DNA of 64,000 bases, from NCBI RefSeq assembly GCF_055900595.2, contig NZ_CM148325.1; one strand, written 5' to 3'. Each line of letters opens with the position of its first letter. Position 1 is the first letter of the stretch. A program made the position numbers and the translations under genes. Of the stretch, positions 4,859 to 46,931 are shown one piece after another. The notes beneath the pieces are model-generated. The model had not been told where the DNA came from and searched no databases. It worked only from the letters and a program-made list of their open reading frames with translations.

Positions 4859-4900
4859 GGGGCTTCTCCAAAACGTGTTTTTTGTTGTTAATTCGGTGTA

Positions 4901-4940
4901 GACTTGTAAACCTAAATCTTTTCAATTTGGTTTACAAGTC
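4901..4940. promoter_or_regulatory. bio operator (BirA site) in the divergent bioA/bioBFCD promoter region
   Basis: Imperfect 40-bp palindrome GACTTGTAAACCTAAATCTTTTCAATTTGGTTTACAAGTC between the bioB and bioA starts. Confidence 0.8.
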
Positions 4941-4944
4941 GATT

Positions 4945-6234
4945 ATGACAACGGACGATCTTGCCTTTGACCAACGCCATATCTGGCACCCATACACATC
5001 CATGACCTCCCCGCTACCGGTTTATCCGGTGGCGAGCGCCGAAGGTTGCGAGCTGATTTTGTCTGACGGCAGACGCCTGATTGACGGTATGTCGTCCTGG
5101 TGGGCGGCAATCCACGGCTACAACCACCCGCAGCTCAATGCGGCAATGAAGTCGCAAATTGATGCCATGTCGCATGTGATGTTTGGCGGTATCACCCATG
5201 CGCCGGCCATCGAGCTATGCCGCAAACTGGTGGCGATGACGCCGCAACCGCTGGAGTGCGTTTTTCTCGCGGACTCCGGCTCCGTAGCGGTGGAAGTGGC
5301 GATGAAAATGGCGTTGCAGTACTGGCAAGCCAAAGGCGAAGCGCGCCAGCGTTTTCTGACCTTCCGCAATGGTTATCATGGCGATACCTTTGGCGCGATG
5401 TCGGTGTGCGATCCAGACAACTCAATGCACAGCCTGTGGAAAGGCTATCTGCCAGAAAACCTGTTTGCTCCCGCGCCGCAAAGCCGCATGGATGGCGAAT
5501 GGGATGAACGCGATATGGTGGGCTTCGCACGTCTGATGGCGGCGCATCGTCATGAAATCGCGGCGGTGATCATTGAACCGATTGTTCAGGGCGCTGGCGG
5601 AATGCGCATGTACCATCCGGAATGGTTAAAACGAATCCGCAAAATGTGCGTTCGTGAAGGTATCTTGCTGATTGCCGACGAGATAGCCACCGGATTTGGT
5701 CGTACCGGCAAACTGTTTGCCTGCGAACATGCAGAAATTGCGCCGGACATTTTATGCCTCGGTAAAGCCTTAACCGGCGGTACGATGACCCTTTCCGCCA
5801 CGCTCACTACGCGCGAAGTGGCTGAAACTATCAGCAACGGCGAAGCCGGATGCTTTATGCACGGGCCAACCTTTATGGGCAATCCGCTGGCCTGCGCGGC
5901 AGCAAACGCCAGCCTGGCCATTATCGAATCTGGCGACTGGCAGCAGCAGGTAGCGACTATTGAAGCACAACTGCGCGAGCAACTGGCTCCTGCCCGTGAC
6001 GCCGAAATGGTTGCCGATGTGCGCGTGCTGGGAGCGATTGGCGTGGTCGAAACCACTCGTCCGGTGAATATGGCTGCGCTGCAAAAATTCTTTGTCGAAC
6101 AGGGTGTCTGGATCCGACCTTTTGGCAAGCTGATTTACCTGATGCCACCCTATATCATTCACCCGCAACAGTTGCAGCGCCTGACCGCAGCGGTTAATTG
6201 CGCGGTGCAGGATGAAACATTTTTTTGCCAATAA
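4945..6234 (+). CDS. bioA: Adenosylmethionine-8-amino-7-oxononanoate aminotransferase
   Basis: From ATG 4945 reads [25 protein letters not shown], 429 aa; the track ORF start at 4882 lies inside the operator and is unlikely; class III aminotransferase motifs. Confidence 0.9.
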
Positions 6235-6292
6235 CGAGCAGTCAGCGTGAGGTTTTCTGGCTACACTTTCTGCAAACAAGAAAGGAGGGTTC

Positions 6293-6769
6293 ATGAAACT
6301 CATTAGTAATGATCTGCGCGATGGCGATAAGCTGCCGCATCGCCATGTCTTTAACGGCATGGGTTACGATGGCGATAATATTTCGCCGCATCTGGCATGG
6401 GATGATGTTCCTGCGGGAACCAAAAGTTTTGTCGTCACCTGCTACGACCCGGATGCGCCAACTGGCTCTGGCTGGTGGCACTGGGTAGTTGTTAACTTAC
6501 CCGCTGATACCCGCGTATTACCGCAAGGGTTTGGCTCTGGTCTGGTAGCAATGCCAGACGGCGTTTTGCAGACGCGAACTGACTTTGGTAAAACCGGGTA
6601 CGATGGCGCAGCGCCGCCGAAGGGCGAAACTCATCGCTACATTTTTACCGTTCACGCGCTGGATGTAGAACGTATTGATGTCGATGAAGGTGCCAGTGGC
6701 GCGATGGTCGGGTTTAACGTCCATTTCCACTCTCTGGCAAGCGCCTCGATTACTGCGATGTTTAGTTAA
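6293..6769 (+). CDS. ybhB: PEBP/YbhB-family protein
   Basis: 158 aa, MKLISNDLRDGDKLPHRHVF...; located between bioA and the lambda attachment site as in K-12. Confidence 0.85.
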   Translation: MKLISNDLRDGDKLPHRHVFNGMGYDGDNISPHLAWDDVPAGTKSFVVTCYDPDAPTGSGWWHWVVVNLPADTRVLPQGFGSGLVAMPDGVLQTRTDFGKTGYDGAAPPKGETHRYIFTVHALDVERIDVDEGASGAMVGFNVHFHSLASASITAMFS

Positions 6770-6874: not shown

Positions 6875-7018
6875 TGAACGTGAAACATTAAAAGCCATTA
6901 ATATCAATGCATTACAATATTTTTAGTCTAAAAAATAGACTACATAATGCTACAAAACACAACATACCCAGTCACTATGAATCAACCACTTAGATGGTAT
7001 TAGTGACCTGTAACAGAG

Positions 7019-7062
7019 CATTAGCGCAAGGTGACTTTTTGTCTTCTTGCGCTAATTTTTTG
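7019..7062 (+). terminator. Hairpin plus T-run at the inner edge of the P arm
   Basis: ATTAGCGCAAG...CTTGCGCTAAT stem followed by TTTTTTG; oriented to stop transcription entering from the ybhB side. Confidence 0.45.
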
Positions 7063-7265
7063 TCAAACACATTACGTCGTTTGCTGAATTTACAACCATG
7101 CTCAGTATCTCGATAAGCGCAGAGAAATGATGCAGTGGTGGGCGGATTGGCTTGATGAAAAGGTGTAGCAACCAACATTGCTATATCTCAGATAGCACAA
7201 AGCCTTGCAATCCAGTGCAAAGCTTTGTGTGTCTCAGTTTTGTCTCATCGGTAATTATGTGTTCG

Positions 7266-7565
7266 CTACGATGCAAGAATCCATACCAATAAGCATCCGA
7301 TAATTGGGAAAGAAAAATCCAACAAACTTCCCACATCCCACACGCGTGGATCAAAACCTCCCCACCACGGCATGTTGACACGTTTCCCTTTCCCAAACTT
7401 TTCTATCCAGCGATATTCTGCCTGGGTGTGTTCACGCGCAATGAAGAACGTACAACCGGCTATCGCACCGTAAGCCCAGTTTCCGGTAAAAATACCAACC
7501 AGTACCTGAGCCGCAAAAGCGCAAAGCGAGTGAAGAAATGGAGTGACATCAATGCTCTTAATCAT
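7266..7565 (-). CDS. Small predicted inner-membrane protein, function unknown (accessory gene)
   Basis: 99 aa with hydrophobic segments ([27 protein letters not shown]); start overlaps the tailspike stop (ATGA); last gene before the att site. Confidence 0.5.
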
Positions 7566-9619
7566 GAAACTTCCCCATTGGTTGAAAATATGGCTCCTCC
7601 AACTCCAAGTGTATTTCGTGTTGTGCTCAACCTAAGAGGGCTGGAGTCAGAATTAGAATATCCTGTAGCAGAAATAAAAGATCCTCCACTAATAGTCAAC
7701 TGCGGAACATCGGCTATATCTGAATAAGTTCTGTCAGCAACAGTATTATTTATAGCCACATGTGATCCAAAAAAACTTCTTATTGTTTGGTTTTTAACTT
7801 TACTTCCTTCAATGGTTATCCTACTACCACAGTCAGCAATAAATCCTGAATCTGCATCCAGCGTTGCATTCATAAAAGAAGCTTCAGATCTCTCTACATC
7901 AATCCATCTAATATCTTTTGTGGGATTTGCACCAAATACATGACAAATATTAGAGTTAAACCTTACACCATCTTGGAGGTGCATTAATTTTTTTATATCT
8001 GTACCCCATAGCCTTGGAAAATTAACAGATGCTCCTGCATGGCAATCAAATCCCAGCTCAACCCCTGAGATATCTACAGCCTTTCCGGAAATAACAGCAC
8101 CAGTGTCTGCATTAACGGCTGTTCCACAATTGCGCATATCATTACCAGCAACATCAACACAACCCGCACCATCAATACGCACACCAAGTGCACATCCATA
8201 AAAACCTTTTTCAATATTTGGTTCAAGGACTTTACCACTTGTTTCTGCATCACTTTCTTCAACGTCATGTCGTCTTGCATCAACATATGCTGTATGAATG
8301 CACGTTAATCCACGATATGAGCAATGTATAGTTTTATGGTCGCGTATATTAACATTTGAACCATCTCTTACATTCCATCCTATATAACAATAGCTTGCAC
8401 TTGACCCCTGAAAATCTGCTTTAACATTATAAATACAATTAACTGACGCAACCGTACTCTCTGTGCACCGTTCAAACTTACTTACAGGCATTGATGCCTT
8501 GACATTATTTACCAGTTGCAGGGAAGAGTATCTGCTATAAGAAAAATCACATACGTAATACCCTTCTGGCATATATGCAGCAACACTTTCCTCATCAGGA
8601 GCACATCCGGTATGATATGCACTAATTTTTGCACCAAAACTACCATGAATTCCAACGTAGAACTTTCGAGCACCTGAATACGGATAGAAATTAAGTTCAG
8701 CTTTTTGAGTTACAATAAATGCACAAACATCGCTATCATCTCTATTTTCTTCAATCTGAATAGCAAATACAGGACTTTTTGCTGCATCGCAAATGTAAAA
8801 TAAATATTTGTATTCGTAATACGTCCTAACAGTTTTAGTAAACAAACTGGTATCAGAGAAAACCACTGAGTCTTCTGATATTATTTTAATCCATGATAAG
8901 TCACATCCTGCTGAAATTTCTATTTGCTCATTGAGCACAAAACCGGAAAGAATTTTAATTATGCAAAAATCAATGCCATTTTTCCATAGTGGACGCAGTG
9001 CAACAGCTGAGTTTAGAGCATCACTAATAGATTTAAAATTACCATATTCCCCAACTGTTATTGTGAATGCATACCTGGAATTAAATACTGCGGCACTCTC
9101 TCCAGAGTTAATAGCTGCAGATATCATGTCATAATTTGATATAAAATCATTTGGCGTGATTATTTCTGCGTTTTTATTGTGCTGTGTTCTAAGTTTTGAA
9201 TTTACATGAACACTTTTAACTGCAATACGGGAGTCGTCAACAAGTATTTCATTACCCTCTGTTGCTAACTCTTGTCTTAACTGATCCGGGTCATACTTCA
9301 GCACATTCGGAAAATAGAACTGCTGCACACCGTACGCATCATAAACAGCCATAGAATGGCCCTGTACAGTAACGAATTTGGCAATCTGTCCGTTATATAC
9401 CGGATATCCAGCAGCGTTAATGATGATTGGTTGCGAAACAGGAACGTGAGATCCATCTTCGTTCTCTACATAAACCTGAATCTGGTTTTCAGGATTTACA
9501 GGGGCAGTATCAATTTTACCGATATAAATTTTGCCATTGGCTACGGCTTTAAAAGAACGCGCCATAGTGAAGAGTTGCGAAGGCATACTCACTACAACAT
9601 TGGCTGTAATGTCTGTCAT
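7562..9619 (-). CDS. Tailspike protein with P22 gp9-like N-terminal head-binding domain and a different receptor-binding domain
   Basis: N-terminus [38 protein letters not shown]...VLKYDPDQ matches the P22 tailspike head-binding domain as I recall it; remaining ~570 aa unrelated to P22 endorhamnosidase. Confidence 0.85.
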
Positions 9620-9687
9620 TTAATTTGCTCCAGATACAAGGAATCGCCGCAGCATTGCCACAGTGATGCATTATTAATCAAACAAAG

Positions 9688-9702
9688 AGACCACTGTGGT
9701 CT
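9688..9702. promoter_or_regulatory. Palindromic operator-like site between the tailspike and mnt-like gene
   Basis: AGACCACTGTGGTCT (7-1-7 palindrome), resembling the P22 Mnt operator in symmetry and position. Confidence 0.5.
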
Positions 9703-9765
9703 TATTGAGGATGCAACCAGCAGATAATAAGATGCCGATCCACTCACAAAAGCGAGGCATCAAGA

Positions 9766-10134
9766 ATGGGAAGAGATGACCCGCAATTTAATCTGCGGCT
9801 ACCTTACGAATTAAAGGAAAAACTAAAACAGCGAGCCAAATCCAATGGCCGCTCTCTTAATTCAGAATTAGTTCAGATAGTGACTGATGCTGTATCAAAG
9901 CCATCCAAAATTTCAGGCTATCGAGACGATGCGGAACGCATCGCTGATGAGCAGTCAGAGCTTGTTAAGAAGATGGTGTTTGATACGCTGAAGGATTTGT
10001 ACAAAAACCCACCTGATGGTGGGTTCCATTTATTAGTCTTGCTTTGTGGACGGTATAAGGGATGCATTTGCCTCTTTAGGCTTCAAGGTATACATCCCAC
10101 CATTAAATGGATCTACAGCAAGCCAACCAATTAA
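9766..10134 (+). CDS. mnt: Mnt-like ribbon-helix-helix repressor with ~40 aa C-terminal extension
   Basis: MGRDDPQFNLRLPYELKEKLKQRAKSNGRSLNSELVQIV...DAERIADEQSELVKKMVFDTLKDLYK closely follows P22 Mnt; ORF then continues antisense to the neighbouring lipoprotein gene. Confidence 0.75.
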   Translation: MGRDDPQFNLRLPYELKEKLKQRAKSNGRSLNSELVQIVTDAVSKPSKISGYRDDAERIADEQSELVKKMVFDTLKDLYKNPPDGGFHLLVLLCGRYKGCICLFRLQGIHPTIKWIYSKPTN

Positions 10135-10452
10135 CCCACCAAACACAAGGTTTCCACCAATATACCAACCATTAGCATTGGCTTTGATTGGCAGGGTAAC
10201 TGGTTCGTACCCATCCTTCTCCATAGTGATCTGGTAGCTCTTTTTGCCAAAATAACTACCATCTGACTTGGCAAGAGTTACTCCTTGCGGGGTCTTACCT
10301 TGCGCAACAATCACGCCTGATTCGTCTTTTACCTTAAAGCTCGCACCGGAAGGATTGCTGTTCACTTGCACAAGCTGTGTTTCGTCACCAACAATAGTTG
10401 CGCACCCAGATAACATGATAACGCCAGCAACGACGCCAATAATCCTCTTCAT
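10033..10452 (-). CDS. Lipoprotein with PEGA-like domain, function unknown
   Basis: MKRIIGVVAGVIMLSGC lipobox signal; VNSNPSGASFKVKDESGVIVAQGKTPQGVTL resembles the PEGA motif; convergent with mnt. Confidence 0.6.
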   Translation of the reverse strand: MKRIIGVVAGVIMLSGCATIVGDETQLVQVNSNPSGASFKVKDESGVIVAQGKTPQGVTLAKSDGSYFGKKSYQITMEKDGYEPVTLPIKANANGWYIGGNLVFGGLIGWLAVDPFNGGMYTLKPKEANASLIPSTKQD

Positions 10453-10569
10453 ATCAATTTCCATATTTAAAAAACCGGAAACATCCTAATGACAAACCAT
10501 TCAAATGTGAAGTAGGCAAAAGATGTTTACTTTTTTCATGGTATCCTGCTCAAAACTAAGGAGGTTGGC

Positions 10570-10959
10570 GTGAAGCAATTTCTTACTGCTATGTTCTTAT
10601 TCATATCTTTTGGGGCTACAGCAGAGTGCTGGGTCGTTGGAGATATGCGCGGAATAAGCTATTCAGAACGAAATAATTTCCATCCGGAAGAAGATGGTTT
10701 TAGTGGAACATTCATCATTAAGACAAACGGTGAAGATGCCAGCATCACATATTCTGGGACAGATGCGGGCGGCATGGCTTACAAAGCATTGTCTAAAAAC
10801 TCCATCATAGGAATCGGCGCGAATGGCGAAACTCAACGCGTTATCGACTCATGGGTAATACATCCTACTGGAACAGTTTTAATGTCAAAAACCATTTCCG
10901 GTTATGGAAATATGGATTCAACCAAAGCTTTTGTTGGAAAAGTAAAAAGAAAATGTTAG
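10570..10959 (+). CDS. Small secreted protein, family A/B paralogue 1
   Basis: GTG start after AAGGAGG; signal peptide MKQFLTAMFLFISFGATA then ECWVVGD...STKAFVGKVKRKC; shares motifs with the ORF at 36750-37154. Confidence 0.6.
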   Translation: MKQFLTAMFLFISFGATAECWVVGDMRGISYSERNNFHPEEDGFSGTFIIKTNGEDASITYSGTDAGGMAYKALSKNSIIGIGANGETQRVIDSWVIHPTGTVLMSKTISGYGNMDSTKAFVGKVKRKC

Positions 10960-10983
10960 CGATTGAATCCAATTTCCCATACG

Positions 10984-12825
10984 TTACTGCTGTGTTGCCT
11001 CAGTAGCAAACAGCGGTCTGATGGCATTCGCAGCGTTATTTATCGCTCTTTCATAGGCTGGTGTTCCTGCTTTGGTGTTTGCCAAACGAAGAAGCATATT
11101 CCTTGCTGCTTTGGACTCATACAAGCGCATCATTGCACCAAAACCAGCCTCAATCCCCATTGATACGCCAAGGGTCGCAGTTGCGCCAATCGTCCTTATC
11201 CTGTTGGCTTGCGATTGCCCCGTCTGAGTTACTACATTTGCGGTGTCTGACCTTGCTGTTTGCTGTAGAACTTCATGAAGAGCATCAAGCTCTTTCATGT
11301 GCTTTCCAGAAAAAATAGTGTTGTAAATTTCACCGCCTGACTGAGATTTCAGCTTATTAACTTCAGTGATGAACTTGGCTGGAGAGTCCCCGGCCTTTTC
11401 CGCTATTTTGCTGACGTAAGCTGCACGCATAGCATCTTTCCCCTTATCATCCAGTGCGCTCCAGATTCGTTTCACGTCAGATGGTTTTCTGCTTAATACA
11501 ACGGTATTTATAAGTTCAGGACTGGCTTCACTGCTTGCCTTGTTGAGCTTGTTGGCAATGTTTTTATTAAGCACCTTATTATAAACGTTTGCATAATCGG
11601 AATTTGCTTTAAGGTATTTTGCTGCGTCTGATGCACCGAGGTTTTTAGCAACTGCGTTACGAAGGTCTTTTGACATTGCATTCTCTACCATATTGGTAGC
11701 TGCTTTTGCCTGGTTGGGGAAGACCATAGCATCTCCCTGAACATTAGATCTAAATGCTGTTCTGTGCTGACGCAAGAGATCAAACGTAACATCCAAATCA
11801 GTTGCAGGGTTTGCTAATTCTTCACGTAGGTTACGCAAGGATGTAAGCAGGCTTTGATTGGCAGACGTCCCAAGCCGTTCCTGTCTTGCGATCGCTGTAT
11901 TCAGAGCATTCATGGTATTTGTGGTATCAACTGCGGCATTACCCATTTTATTGGTGACGTCATTGATAACAGCGCCAGCGGCATCCTTCCGCCCCCTTAA
12001 CGTGGTGGTCAGAGATTTCACCACATCATCAGGGTTGTACTCACCAAAACGGTCAAAATAATTGCTTACCAGCTTACTCCGCGTTGCATATTGCTCTGCT
12101 CGCTTTGAGCCCGTCCCGAGCAAAGCCCCCTCGGCATCCTGAGTAAGGCCGCGAGTGAAAGCATTTTTCGGCGGGATAACATCAGATGTCATTGGTGTCA
12201 CGCCCATCGATTCTGATGTGGCAATTTTCTTCGCCACTTCTGGCGCAATATCACCTTTTATAGCCGTTATTCCACGCCCTATTCCCTTTGCTGCTGCGGA
12301 AAGAACACCCTGAGCGGCAAGGTTAACTCCGGCATTTTTAGCTGCATTTTGTGCGAAATCGCCTTTCTGATTTGCGGCCTCTGCCAGCGATCCAATAGCC
12401 ATGCTTCCTGCCGTTCCAACTCCTGGAACTAAATACCCACCAATTGTTTCACCGGCTTGTGCGTATGGGTCTGTCGGTTTGTCTACTGGACGATAAACAT
12501 CATCCAAAACTTTTGGCCCACCAAGCCCCTGACTGATTGCATTAATCAGACTTGCGCCACCCTGCAATACGTCAAATGGTATGTTTACCAGACCACGACC
12601 AGCCTGTTCTGCAATTTGCCCTGCACTTTGACCACCAGTGAGCCAATCGCCAGCTTGTTGCATCAATGATGGTTCTTCACGTACTGGTGCATTATTGGCC
12701 TGATTAACTGTTTGTTGCTGAACAACCTGACCAGCAAAATAATCATCAATGGCGGCTCCAATATCTTCCGTGCTCGTACCATCAGGGAAGGTAAATGTCT
12801 TACCGTTTGCAGTTACTTTCATCAT
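10984..12825 (-). CDS. Ejection (internal virion) protein, P22 gp16-like by size and position
   Basis: 613 aa, Gly/Ala-rich; last of three co-oriented genes after the tail genes, matching the P22 order 7-20-16. Confidence 0.6.
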
Positions 12826-35801: not shown

Positions 35802-37154
<1,353 letters not shown>

Positions 37155-45647: not shown

Positions 45648-46931
45648 GTGAACACATTTTCAGTTTCCCGTCTGGCGCTGGCATTGGCTTTTGGCGTGAC
45701 GCTGACCGCCTGTAGCTCAACACCGCCCGATCAACGTCCTTCTGATCAAACCGCGCCTGGTACCTCTTCTCGCCCGATTCTGTCGGCAAAAGAAGCGCAG
45801 AATTTCGATGCTCAACACTATTTTGCGTCCCTGACGCCAGGTGCTGCAGCGTGGAATCCTTCCCCGATTACTCTGCCTGCGCAACCTGACTTTGTTGTCG
45901 GCCCGGCGGGTACTCCGGGTGTAACGCATACCACGATTCAGGCGGCGGTAGATGCGGCAATTATCAAGCGCACCAACAAGCGCCAGTATATTGCCGTGAT
46001 GCCTGGTGAGTATCAGGGAACGGTGTATGTCCCTGCTGCTCCGGGTGGAATTACTCTGTACGGTACAGGTGAAAAACCGATTGATGTGAAGATTGGGCTT
46101 TCCCTTGATGGGAGCATGAGCCCTGCCGACTGGCGTCACGACGTCAACCCGCGCGGCAAATATATGCCAGGTAAACCAGCGTGGTATATGTACGATAGCT
46201 GCCAGAGCAAACGCAGCGACAGTATCGGCGTTCTGTGTTCTGCGGTCTTCTGGTCACAAAACAACGGCCTGCAACTGCAAAACCTGACCATCGAAAACAC
46301 GCTGGGTGATAGCGTAGATGCGGGTAACCATCCGGCGGTGGCACTGCGTACTGATGGCGACAAAGTGCAGATCAATAACGTCAACATTCTCGGTCGTCAG
46401 AATACATTCTTTGTCACCAACAGTGGTGTGCAAAACCGTCTGGAAACCAACCGTCAGCCGCGTACTCTGGTGACCAACAGTTACATTGAAGGGGATGTGG
46501 ATATCGTTTCTGGTCGCGGCGCAGTGGTGTTCGATAATACCGAATTCCGCGTGGTGAACTCACGTACTCAGCAAGAAGCGTATGTGTTTGCACCGGCTAC
46601 GCTGTCTAACATCTATTACGGTTTCCTCGCCGTAAACAGCCGCTTCAATGCTTCCGGTGATGGCGTGGCGCAACTGGGCCGCTCGCTGGATGTTGATGCC
46701 AATACCAACGGTCAGGTGGTGATCCGTGATAGCGCCATCAACGAAGGTTTTAACACGGCTAAACCGTGGGCCGATGCGGTGATTTCCAATCGCCCGTTTG
46801 CGGGTAATACTGGCAACGTTGATGATAACGACGAAGTACAGCGTAATCTGAATGACACTAACTACAACCGCATGTGGGAATACAATAACCGCGGCGTGGG
46901 TAGCAAAGTGGTTGCAGAGGCGAAGAAGTAA
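45648..46931 (+). CDS. ybhC: Pectinesterase-family outer-membrane lipoprotein
   Basis: GTG start; MNTFSVSRLALALAFGVTLTACSS lipobox; 427 aa. Confidence 0.85.
   Translation: MNTFSVSRLALALAFGVTLTACSSTPPDQRPSDQTAPGTSSRPILSAKEAQNFDAQHYFASLTPGAAAWNPSPITLPAQPDFVVGPAGTPGVTHTTIQAAVDAAIIKRTNKRQYIAVMPGEYQGTVYVPAAPGGITLYGTGEKPIDVKIGLSLDGSMSPADWRHDVNPRGKYMPGKPAWYMYDSCQSKRSDSIGVLCSAVFWSQNNGLQLQNLTIENTLGDSVDAGNHPAVALRTDGDKVQINNVNILGRQNTFFVTNSGVQNRLETNRQPRTLVTNSYIEGDVDIVSGRGAVVFDNTEFRVVNSRTQQEAYVFAPATLSNIYYGFLAVNSRFNASGDGVAQLGRSLDVDANTNGQVVIRDSAINEGFNTAKPWADAVISNRPFAGNTGNVDDNDEVQRNLNDTNYNRMWEYNNRGVGSKVVAEAKK

What the first reader, a model, noticed from the sequence alone, without database searches (positions are those of the whole stretch)
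9620..10984. Accessory island between tailspike and ejection genes: orphan Mnt, lipoprotein, secreted protein
In P22 this interval holds sieA and immI (mnt, arc, ant). Here only an Mnt-like gene and a palindromic operator-like site (AGACCACTGTGGTCT) remain; arc and ant are absent. The freed space carries a PEGA-like lipoprotein and the secreted paralogue. The operator sits in the region immediately upstream of the tailspike gene, so Mnt may now control tailspike or cargo expression rather than an antirepressor.
Basis: partly seen in the sequence, partly recalled or inferred. Interest (0 to 1): 0.7.

Follow-up and report, generated by a model that had tools for sequence, protein, structure and literature searches.

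The report
Mnt-only "ant moron" of P22-like prophage
This is an ordinary variant of the well-known swap-prone gene slot in front of the tailspike gene of P22-like phages: a leftover Mnt repressor with its own binding site and promoter, here slightly damaged, sits beside two uncharacterised cell-envelope proteins, and nothing indicates that it has been rewired to control the tailspike.

Summary
In the gene 16 to tailspike interval of a P22-like prophage at att-lambda of E. coli, arc, sar, ant and sieA are absent. An Mnt homologue, a perfect 15-bp palindrome (9688-9702), a lipoprotein gene and a secreted-protein gene are present.

- The only promoter-like site in 9620-9765 points towards mnt. 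It has the same spacing to the palindrome as P22 Pmnt has to Omnt, and the Pant positions are degenerate.
- No other copy of the operator lies near the cargo genes.
- mnt carries a 1-bp deletion that replaces its last 3 codons with a 42-residue tail.

The arrangement is already known. This interval was named the "ant moron" in 2008, and mnt-only versions are described for ST64T, ST104 and phage L. The same operator lies directly beside a tailspike gene in about 60 IMG/VR contigs.

Two modest points are new. Mnt residue 6 covaries perfectly with the operator half-site: Gln6 with AGACCAC in 67/67 loci, His6 with GGTCCAC in 76/76. Orphan mnt is under purifying selection (dN/dS about 0.1). The secreted protein belongs to an unannotated periplasmic beta-barrel family. 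Members of this family recur at two slots judged by position to be expressed in lysogens.

The parts
7562..9619 (-). Tailspike gene (gene 9 homologue). The N-terminal head-binding domain is P22-like; the receptor domain is different.
   Evidence: ORF of 685 aa. P22 gp9 residues 1-117 are 74% identical. RefSeq name: 'phage head-binding domain-containing protein'.
9620..9765 (.). mnt-tailspike intergenic region, equivalent to the P22 mnt-arc regulatory region joined to the last ~50 bp upstream of gene 9.
   Evidence: Sequence comparison with P22 and alignment with 720R6 and ST160.
9688..9702 (.). Omnt-type operator palindrome AGACCAC-T-GTGGTCT (Gln6-class specificity).
   Evidence: Unique exact copy in the window. 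Found at the same place in 71 IMG/VR loci, with all four bases seen at the centre. P22 Omnt is AGGTCCAC-G-GTGGACCT, annotated as the Mnt binding site.
9705..9733 (+). Pmnt-like promoter TTGAGG-17-TAAGAT. It puts the operator centre at about -45.
   Evidence: Only promoter-like site in 9620-9766. Same spacing to the operator as P22 Pmnt TTGAGA-17-TATCAT. Conserved position in all mnt-only loci examined. Function is inferred.
9766..10134 (+). mnt, frameshifted allele. Residues 1-80 are intact (RHH plus tetramerisation domain); the last 3 codons are replaced by a 42-residue out-of-frame tail that is antisense to the lipoprotein gene.
   Evidence: RefSeq marks the identical EC332 copy as a pseudogene.
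10003..10007 (+). A5 run where relatives have A6: the site of the 1-bp deletion.
   Evidence: Alignment A1. 67/67 IMG/VR relatives are intact. Among the E. coli complete genomes carrying this junction, only EC332 matches the window allele at 100%.
10006..10025 (.). G+C-rich hairpin AACCCACC-TGAT-GGTGGGTT. It is an intrinsic terminator for the lipoprotein transcript (- strand, followed by U5) and lies at the 3' end of mnt.
   Evidence: Terminator scan. RNA fold -16.1 kcal/mol, z -2.4. Annotated as a terminator in epsilon34.
10033..10464 (-). Lipoprotein gene of the epsilon34 gp15 family (phrog_6823). The likely start is MKRIIG at 10452. Lipobox LSGC, a beta-sandwich domain, then a Gly-rich C-terminal segment.
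10483..10511 (-). Promoter-like site TTCACA-17-TAGGAT upstream of the lipoprotein gene, in the divergent 105-bp intergenic region.
   Evidence: Consensus scan, 9/12. Not more sites than chance in this region, so weak evidence.
10570..10959 (+). Secreted (periplasmic) 129-aa protein (phrog_2651). GTG start 5 nt after AAGGAGG, signal peptide to ATA|E, Cys near both ends of the mature protein, calycin-like beta-barrel. It has the position and orientation of P22 sieA.
10984..12825 (-). Ejection protein gene (gene 16 homologue); right border of the island.
   Evidence: The C-terminal 150 aa of P22 gp16 are 77% identical. RefSeq name: 'DNA transfer protein'.
36750..37154 (+). Paralogue of the secreted protein. 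Its ATG overlaps the stop codon of the cI-type repressor gene (36121-36753).
   Evidence: The same arrangement is seen for family member P0151.

Best explanation
The interval is one more mosaic version of the hypervariable 'ant moron' that P22-like phages carry between ejection gene 16 and tailspike gene 9. It has three independent units.

(1) A self-contained mnt cassette: the Pmnt-like promoter, the adjoining Omnt-type palindrome centred near -45, and mnt. The arc-sar-ant target module is missing and the Pant promoter has decayed. The likely behaviour is that Mnt is made from the prophage, binds only this operator in cis, and so modulates its own promoter. Any useful activity would be in trans: repressing the ant gene of an incoming or co-resident phage that carries the same operator class. 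In this genome the gene has a 1-bp deletion that leaves both known domains but adds a 42-residue tail, so its activity is uncertain.

(2) An outer-membrane-type lipoprotein of the epsilon34 gp15 family, in the late-operon orientation, followed by an intrinsic terminator.

(3) A periplasmic beta-barrel protein in the sieA position and orientation.

Units 2 and 3 are most likely prophage-expressed envelope factors, with superinfection exclusion the leading guess. The tailspike gene is most likely transcribed by antiterminated read-through from the late promoter, as in P22, not from a Mnt-controlled promoter.

Shown: anatomy, homologies, absences, spacing, covariation, selection. Inferred: binding, autoregulation, trans-repression, expression in lysogens, exclusion.
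For: Identity of the region:
- Synteny with P22, epsilon34, ST160 and 720R6.
- Named and described in PMC2629481 and for phage L.

The mnt cassette:
- Pfam Arc plus Repressor_Mnt domains; matches PDB 1mnt and 1qey.
- Operator-promoter spacing identical to P22 and epsilon34.
- The only promoter-like site reads into mnt.
- 67/67 relatives beside this operator are intact ORFs with Gln6, against 76/76 His6 beside the P22-type operator.
- dN/dS 0.09-0.14 at dS 0.4-0.5 between orphan lineages.
- The central base of the palindrome varies freely while the arms are fixed.
- The same operator precedes arc-ant, with a 10/12 Pant, in six loci. Targets for trans-repression therefore exist.

Cargo independence:
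- The cassette is joined to lipoprotein plus secreted protein, lipoprotein alone, orf59a with or without sieA, or the short phage-L type.

Envelope pattern of the sieA slot:
- The slot holds SieA in P22, a TM-anchored protein in epsilon34 and a lipoprotein in 720R6.

Secreted family at slots judged lysogen-expressed by position:
- After cI with overlapping stop and start, and convergent with gene 16.

Terminator after the lipoprotein gene.
Against: - No binding, transcription or expression data exist for any part.
- Whether Mnt at -45 activates, represses or does nothing at Pmnt once Pant is dead cannot be told from sequence.
- The six arc-ant loci with this operator resemble an Erwinia phage most closely. 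Suitable trans targets in E. coli are therefore not demonstrated.
- Genetic work cited in the phage L paper found no functional immI in L.
- The frameshift allele sits in a late region that differs at 1 position in about 21 kb between two host backgrounds. Intact Mnt is therefore dispensable for the phage at least in the short term.
- PADLOC, Pfam and fold searches give no functional label for either cargo protein.
- Distant members of the secreted family also sit in chromosomal islands near toxin and immunity-like genes, so exclusion is only one possibility.
Confidence: 0.6

Rival explanations
1. First reader's model. After loss of arc-ant, the Mnt operator now sits on a promoter that drives the tailspike gene (or the cargo genes), so Mnt has been recruited as a repressor of tailspike or cargo expression in the lysogen.
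For: The operator lies 68 bp upstream of the tailspike ATG. In P22 the same operator overlaps the start of Pant, whose transcripts can continue toward gene 9. Some ST160-type relatives keep a weak 7/12 leftward match, ATCATA-18-CACAAT, abutting the operator.
Against: No leftward promoter-like site with the essential -10 bases exists in the window; the Pant hexamer positions read TCGGCA and TGCATC. There is no operator copy near the cargo promoters. Cargo is swapped freely around a constant mnt/operator cassette. mnt is frameshifted here.
Confidence: 0.1
2. Pure relic. The mnt/operator cassette is a functionless remnant of a degraded immI region, on its way out; the frameshift here is the first step.
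For: The target module is absent. Pant is degenerate. The window allele is frameshifted and RefSeq calls it a pseudogene. The phage L authors raise this possibility.
Against: Across orphan lineages the ORF is intact in all loci read, dN/dS is about 0.1 with dS up to about 0.5 or saturated, and both the perfect palindrome and the Pmnt spacing are retained. The frameshift removes only 3 residues, after both Pfam domains.
Confidence: 0.2
3. Roadblock or insulator. Mnt bound at the operator, together with convergent Pmnt transcription, tunes how much late-operon read-through reaches the tailspike gene. It may also keep stray transcription from the lipoprotein promoter out of the tailspike gene in lysogens.
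For: Late transcripts must cross the operator to reach the tailspike gene (anatomy). [quoted passage not shown] This would explain why the deletion kept the operator right next to gene 9 in about 60 loci.
Against: There is no direct evidence. Many P22-like phages (Sf6, HK620) lack mnt altogether. A terminator already follows the lipoprotein gene.
Confidence: 0.1

Closest known systems
P22 immI region (mnt - Omnt/Oarc/Pant/Pmnt - arc - sar - ant) with sieA, between genes 16 and 9
   Same: Same genomic slot and gene orientation. mnt is 76% identical. There is a palindromic operator with the CCAC-N-GTGG core, and the Pmnt-like promoter has identical spacing to the operator.
   Different: No arc, sar, ant, sieA or orf59a. 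Pant is degenerate. The operator arms read AGACCAC rather than GGTCCAC, and Mnt has Gln6, Leu9 and Leu11 where P22 has His6, Phe9 and Met11. The gene is frameshifted at the 3' end.
Mnt-only 'ant morons' of phages L/ST64T, ST104, ST160, SE1 and of E. coli phages vB_EcoP-720R6 and Gally
   Same: mnt and the operator lie directly upstream of the tailspike gene with no arc or ant. The operator class is the same where sequence was read: ST160, 720R6 and the IMG/VR loci. 720R6 and Gally are 97-98% identical over tailspike 5' end, mnt and lipoprotein gene.
   Different: The cargo beside mnt differs: orf62/orf64 in the Salmonella phages and another lipoprotein in 720R6. Here it is the epsilon34-type lipoprotein plus an Emek-type secreted protein. 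The window allele is frameshifted.
Salmonella phage epsilon34 genes 14-16
   Same: Lipoprotein gene 15 and the mnt 3' half are 95% identical, with the same terminator hairpin between them.
   Different: epsilon34 keeps arc, sar and ant, has the P22-type operator and a His6 Mnt, and has an hkcB-like TM protein in the sieA slot.
Prophage superinfection-exclusion envelope proteins (P22 SieA; T5 Llp and phi80 Cor lipoproteins)
   Same: Position and orientation match sieA, and the products are envelope-localised. PHROGs gives a marginal match of the lipoprotein signal peptide to Cor (E 0.0046, residues 5-24 only).
   Different: There is no sequence or fold homology to SieA, Cor or Llp. No function has been tested. 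Comparison with Llp and Cor rests on general knowledge.

Membership tests
P22 immI immunity region | mnt repressor gene | tested here: met
   76% identity to P22 Mnt over 80 aa; Pfam Arc plus Repressor_Mnt. The allele is frameshifted.
P22 immI immunity region | arc repressor gene next to the operator | tested here: not met
   tblastn with P22 Arc hits only mnt. The 43-aa ORF at 9616-9747 (-) gave no Arc hit in that search.
P22 immI immunity region | ant antirepressor gene | tested here: not met
   No tblastn hit at E<0.29 anywhere in the window.
P22 immI immunity region | sar antisense RNA | tested here: not met
   Rfam RF00262 is found in the P22 control at 97.8 bits and is absent from window 7000-11500 at E<=1.
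P22 immI immunity region | Strong Pant promoter overlapping Omnt | tested here: not met
   No leftward site in 9620-9766. P22 scores 11/12, and arc-ant loci with the same operator score 10/12.
Mnt repressor family | N-terminal ribbon-helix-helix domain with the beta-strand DNA-contact residues | tested here: met
   PF03869 at residues 3-50, E 1.2e-21; aligns to PDB 1mnt. Arg2, Asn8 and Arg10 are conserved and His6 is replaced by Gln. The role of these residues is from the literature as I recall it (Knight and Sauer), not re-read here.
Mnt repressor family | C-terminal tetramerisation domain | tested here: met
   PF11423 at residues 53-80, all 28 model positions; aligns to PDB 1qey.
Mnt repressor family | Intact ORF of about 82-83 residues | tested here: not met
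   A 1-bp deletion gives 122 aa, against 82-83 aa in all the orphan relatives and 86-128 aa in a few divergent ones, all intact.
Mnt repressor family | Specific binding to a symmetric operator next to its own promoter | not testable with these tools
   Support is indirect: a perfect palindrome at the conserved spacing, and perfect covariation of residue 6 with the half-site.
'ant moron' of P22-like phages (Villafane et al. 2008) | Variable, non-morphogenetic gene set between the gene 16 and gene 9 homologues | tested here: met
   Flanked by gp16 and gp9 homologues. Content differs between relatives. Definition is in PMC2629481.
PEGA-domain lipoproteins | Pfam PEGA (PF08308) match | tested here: inconclusive
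   E 0.033, 14.5 bits. AF2 gives a beta-sandwich at residues 25-93 (pLDDT >90), with only generic Ig or transthyretin-like matches in the PDB.
PEGA-domain lipoproteins | Signal peptide with lipobox cysteine | tested here: met
   The sequence reads MKRIIGVVAGVIMLSG|C. Cys17 is invariant in 37 homologues.
SieA superinfection exclusion | Homology to P22 SieA | tested here: not met
   No tblastn hit in the window. Only the position and orientation are shared.
Known anti-phage defence systems (PADLOC-DB) | Match to any defence-protein model | tested here: not met
   No hits at E<=0.1 for Mnt, the lipoprotein, either secreted paralogue or the 99-aa ORF.

The most novel reading that the evidence does not exclude
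Orphan Mnt(Gln6)-operator cassettes may not be relics. They could be a selected, free-standing module: either a trans-acting 'anti-antirepressor' immunity that protects the lysogen from induction by incoming ant-carrying phages of the same operator class, or a dosage control on tailspike read-through. Separately, the unannotated periplasmic beta-barrel family could be a new superinfection-exclusion or envelope-defence family. It is present twice in this prophage, once translationally coupled to cI and once in the sieA slot.
Probability: 0.2. Interest if true: 0.5.

Novelty: new member of a known kind. Interest (0 to 1): 0.25.

Why it matters
As it stands, little changes. The island is another shuffle of a region already recognised as the most fluid part of the P22-like late operon, and the orphan-mnt arrangement has been in print since 2008.

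Two by-products may be useful.

1. The survey shows a clean natural specificity switch in a textbook ribbon-helix-helix repressor: Gln6 with AGACCAC against His6 with GGTCCAC, without exception in 143 loci. It also shows that orphan mnt is kept under purifying selection. This sharpens the question raised in the phage L paper of whether the gene has another function or is a remnant.

2. The secreted beta-barrel family is a cheap, testable candidate for a new prophage-encoded envelope function. It recurs right after cI and in the sieA slot.

Tried and rejected
- Hidden arc, ant, sieA or orf59a. tblastn of the P22 proteins against all six frames found none.
- A sar remnant. Rfam found none, and the P22 positive control worked.
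- Additional operator copies that would point to other Mnt targets, such as the KilAC or KilA-N genes or the cargo promoters. A pattern search with up to 3 mismatches found only a chance-level site at 46173.
- A tailspike-directed promoter in 9620-9765. None was found.
- Functional labels for the cargo proteins. PADLOC gave nothing. NCBIfam gave only sub-threshold hits. Pfam gave nothing for the secreted protein and a marginal PEGA hit for the lipoprotein. Foldseek against the PDB gave only generic beta-sandwich or calycin-like matches with TM below 0.5. AFDB50 returned only uncharacterised proteins.
- The idea that the secreted protein resembles the cI C-terminal domain. This came from my own coordinate error; the true match is a separate ORF downstream of cI.
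- The frameshift as a sequencing error. This is judged unlikely because the allele occurs in two different host backgrounds.
- The window being E. coli EC332 itself. Rejected: the late region of the prophage is nearly identical, but the chromosomal flanks differ by 1-4% and the nin region differs.
- Man and Stormo 2001 and Berggrun and Sauer 2001. Neither paper is held in the library, so statements on Mnt residue contacts rest on memory.
Full report
**What the window is.** Positions 4882-6769 encode bioA and ybhB. A P22-like (Lederbergvirus-type) prophage follows, ending at an integrase gene next to ybhC, which places it at the att-lambda site of E. coli. From 6800 to about 28270 the prophage differs at one position from the prophage of E. 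coli EC332 (NZ_AP039429.1). The chromosomal flanks differ by 1-4% and the nin region is different, so the window comes from another E. coli strain carrying a nearly identical late region.

**Checking the observation.** The interval 9620-10984 lies between the tailspike gene (7562-9619, minus strand; the N-terminal 117 aa are 74% identical to P22 gp9) and the gene 16 homologue (10984-12825, minus strand; the C-terminal 150 aa are 77% identical). It contains:
- An mnt homologue at 9766-10134 (+), 76% identical to P22 Mnt over 80 residues. Pfam finds Arc (E 1.2e-21) and Repressor_Mnt with all 28 positions, and it matches PDB 1mnt and 1qey.
- The perfect palindrome AGACCACTGTGGTCT at 9688-9702, the only exact copy in 64 kb.
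- A lipoprotein gene at 10033-10452/10464 (-).
- A secreted-protein gene at 10570-10959 (+).

tblastn with P22 Arc, Ant, SieA and Orf59a finds no homologue anywhere in the window. Rfam finds sar in the P22 control but nothing here.

The 122-aa mnt ORF results from a 1-bp deletion. Relatives read TAC AAA AAA CCC ACC TGA (…YKKPT*), whereas the window has five A's at 10003-10007. The frame then runs on for 42 codons, antisense to the lipoprotein gene.
- All 67 Mnt ORFs found beside this operator in IMG/VR are intact, most of them 82-83 aa.
- Among 190 complete E. coli genomes with this mnt-lipoprotein junction, only EC332 shares the window's allele. RefSeq annotates it there as a pseudogene.
- The allele occurs in two host backgrounds, so it is a real mutation rather than a read error.
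- It falls after both Pfam domains, so the DNA-binding and tetramerisation parts are formally intact. The effect of the added hydrophobic tail cannot be judged from sequence.

**The regulatory region.** In P22 the annotated elements are Pant (TTGACA-17-TATATT), the divergent and overlapping Pmnt (TTGAGA-17-TATCAT), and Omnt (AGGTCCACGGTGGACCT). Omnt lies just downstream of the Pant -10 and 1 nt from the Pmnt -35.

In the window the palindrome is followed, at exactly that spacing, by TTGAGG-17-TAAGAT reading into mnt. This is the only site in 9620-9766 that has the essential -10 bases. It puts the operator centre near -45 of the presumed mnt start.

The positions corresponding to Pant read TCGGCA and TGCATC. 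No promoter-like site points at the tailspike gene. By contrast, the six IMG/VR loci that keep arc and ant beside the same operator keep a 10/12 Pant, TTGACA-17-CATTAT or CATCAT.

The last ~45 bp before the tailspike ATG match the P22 sequence before gene 9. The arc-sar-ant block is therefore missing from just beyond the operator to about 50 bp upstream of gene 9.

**How common is this?** A scan of IMG/VR for AGACCACNGTGGTCTTATTG gave 71 loci.
- In about 60 of them the operator sits 57-68 bp from a tailspike head-binding domain, or a few hundred bp in some, with no arc or ant.
- Sequenced phages 720R6, Gally, ST160, SE1 and ST-35 show the same layout.
- The literature already covers it. Villafane et al. 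2008 named this interval the "ant moron", called it the most fluid part of the late operon, and noted that ST64T, ST104 and Para1 contain only mnt plus one unknown gene (PMC2629481).
- The exact combination seen here (mnt, lipoprotein, secreted protein) is present in six IMG/VR contigs and eight complete E. coli genomes.

**Is orphan mnt a relic?** At the family level it does not look like one.
- The ORF is intact in every locus read.
- dN/dS between the window-type and ST160-type lineages is 0.09-0.14 at dS 0.4-0.5. More distant pairs have saturated dS with dN 0.15-0.35.
- The palindrome arms are invariant while its central base takes all four values, as expected for a dyad-symmetric protein site.
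- The Pmnt-like promoter keeps its position in all the divergent orphan loci checked.
- Specificity covaries without exception. All 67 Mnt proteins beside AGACCAC-N-GTGGTCT read DPQFNLR (Gln6). All 76 readable Mnt proteins beside AGGTCCAC-N-GTGGACCT read DDPHFNFRMP (His6), and 79 of those 80 loci have arc next door.
- The Gln6 strand PQFNLR is identical to the DNA-reading strand of Arc.
- From memory of the Sauer and Susskind work, not re-read here, residue 6 is the classic Mnt specificity determinant.

**What Mnt most likely does here.** The anatomy is that of a self-contained cassette: promoter, adjoining operator, gene and terminator hairpin. In cis, Mnt can only act on its own promoter. 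There is no second operator in the window, so the lipoprotein and secreted-protein promoters are not candidates, and neither are the KilAC and KilA-N genes annotated in the EC332 prophage.

The same cassette is attached to at least four different cargo sets, which also argues against a regulator-cargo unit. A plausible reason for its retention is action in trans on ant genes of phages with the same operator class. Such phages exist, but the closest isolate is an Erwinia phage, so this remains inference.

A roadblock or insulator effect on late read-through into the tailspike gene cannot be excluded; Villafane et al. hint at this for P22. By analogy with P22, the tailspike gene itself is most likely expressed by antiterminated read-through from the late promoter.

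**The lipoprotein.** This 139-143-aa protein has the lipobox LSG|C with Ala at +2.
- It belongs to phrog_6823, the epsilon34 gp15 family.
- Hundreds of homologues, many on chromosome-sized contigs, occur across Enterobacterales.
- AlphaFold2 (pLDDT 77.6) gives a confident beta-sandwich at residues 25-93, followed by a low-confidence Gly-rich segment. PDB matches are generic, and Pfam PEGA is marginal at E 0.033.
- On the minus strand the gene is followed by a hairpin and a U-run.

**The secreted protein.** This 129-aa protein has a GTG start behind AAGGAGG and a signal peptide ending ATA|E.
- It has no Pfam, NCBIfam or PADLOC match.
- It belongs to a family of about 170 clusters at 50% identity, with conserved Cys near both ends of the mature chain.
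- Its model is very confident (pLDDT 95): a small all-beta, calycin-like barrel. The only close structural neighbours are uncharacterised proteins.
- It occupies the position and orientation of P22 sieA.
- Its paralogue starts on the stop codon of the cI-type repressor gene.
- Other family members occupy the same two places: P0151 after cI, and P0154 convergent with gene 16.
- Occupants of the sieA slot in relatives are also envelope proteins.
- This points to prophage-expressed envelope functions, with superinfection exclusion the leading guess.
- Distant members also lie in chromosomal islands near toxin and immunity-like genes, so the function stays open.

**Verdict.** The proposed rewiring of Mnt onto tailspike or cargo expression is not supported, and the arrangement is a known, common variant of a known hypervariable region. 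I file it as a new member of a known kind, with low-to-moderate interest. The interest comes mainly from the Gln6/His6 operator covariation, the selection on orphan mnt, and the uncharacterised secreted-protein family.

Noticed in passing
window 36750-37154 (+), next to cI-type repressor 36121-36753: The paralogue of the secreted beta-barrel protein starts on the stop codon of the repressor gene (ATGA overlap), so it is probably co-translated with cI in lysogens. Family member P0151 has the same arrangement in other phage contigs (L083, L084).
   Followed up: partly
L008 and L054 (IMG/VR), about 1.3-2.5 kb beyond the orphan mnt: These two loci have the orphan mnt/operator beside the tailspike gene and also a second, divergent mnt-like (36% identity), arc-like and ant-like (33%) module further into the same moron. 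Orphan mnt can therefore coexist with a different immI-type module.
   Followed up: no
IMG/VR loci L007-L164 (operator scans): Mnt residue 6 and the operator arms covary perfectly: Gln6 with AGACCAC in 67/67, His6 with GGTCCAC in 76/76. The Gln6 class is mostly orphan, while the His6 class almost always has arc and ant. Gln6-class loci that keep arc-ant have Mnt proteins with unrelated, longer C-terminal domains (104-128 aa).
   Followed up: yes
window 7266-7565 (-): A 99-aa predicted membrane protein lies immediately downstream of the tailspike gene at the prophage end (phrog_1443, unknown function). It has no NCBIfam or PADLOC match and may be another lysogenic-conversion-type gene.
   Followed up: no
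window about 25.3-25.9 kb and 29.7-30.4 kb (coordinates approximate, mapped from EC332 annotation): The closely related EC332 prophage has a KilA-N domain gene after the lysis genes and a KilAC-domain 'phage antirepressor' gene in the nin region. Neither is related to P22 Ant, and the window has no exact copy of the Mnt operator outside 9688-9702. The nin region is also where the window and EC332 prophages differ.
   Followed up: partly
window 6800-28270 versus NZ_AP039429.1: The late region of the prophage differs at 1 position in about 21 kb from that of E. coli EC332, while the chromosomal flanks differ by 1-4%. This indicates recent horizontal spread of this phage, together with the frameshifted mnt allele.
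   Followed up: partly
L078-L081 (chromosomal contigs encoding distant members P0145 and P0160 of the secreted family): Distant family members sit in chromosomal islands beside Ntox50, PIN, NUDIX, DUF5713 and IS elements. In L078-L080 the gene overlaps an upstream 91-aa gene by 4 nt. This hints at an immunity-like or defence-island role outside phages.
   Followed up: no
window 9652-9669: A weak hairpin, GCATTGCCACAGTGATGC, lies between the operator and the tailspike start and contains CCACAGTG, which resembles the operator core. It is not conserved in ST160-type or L016-type relatives, so it is probably fortuitous.
   Followed up: partly
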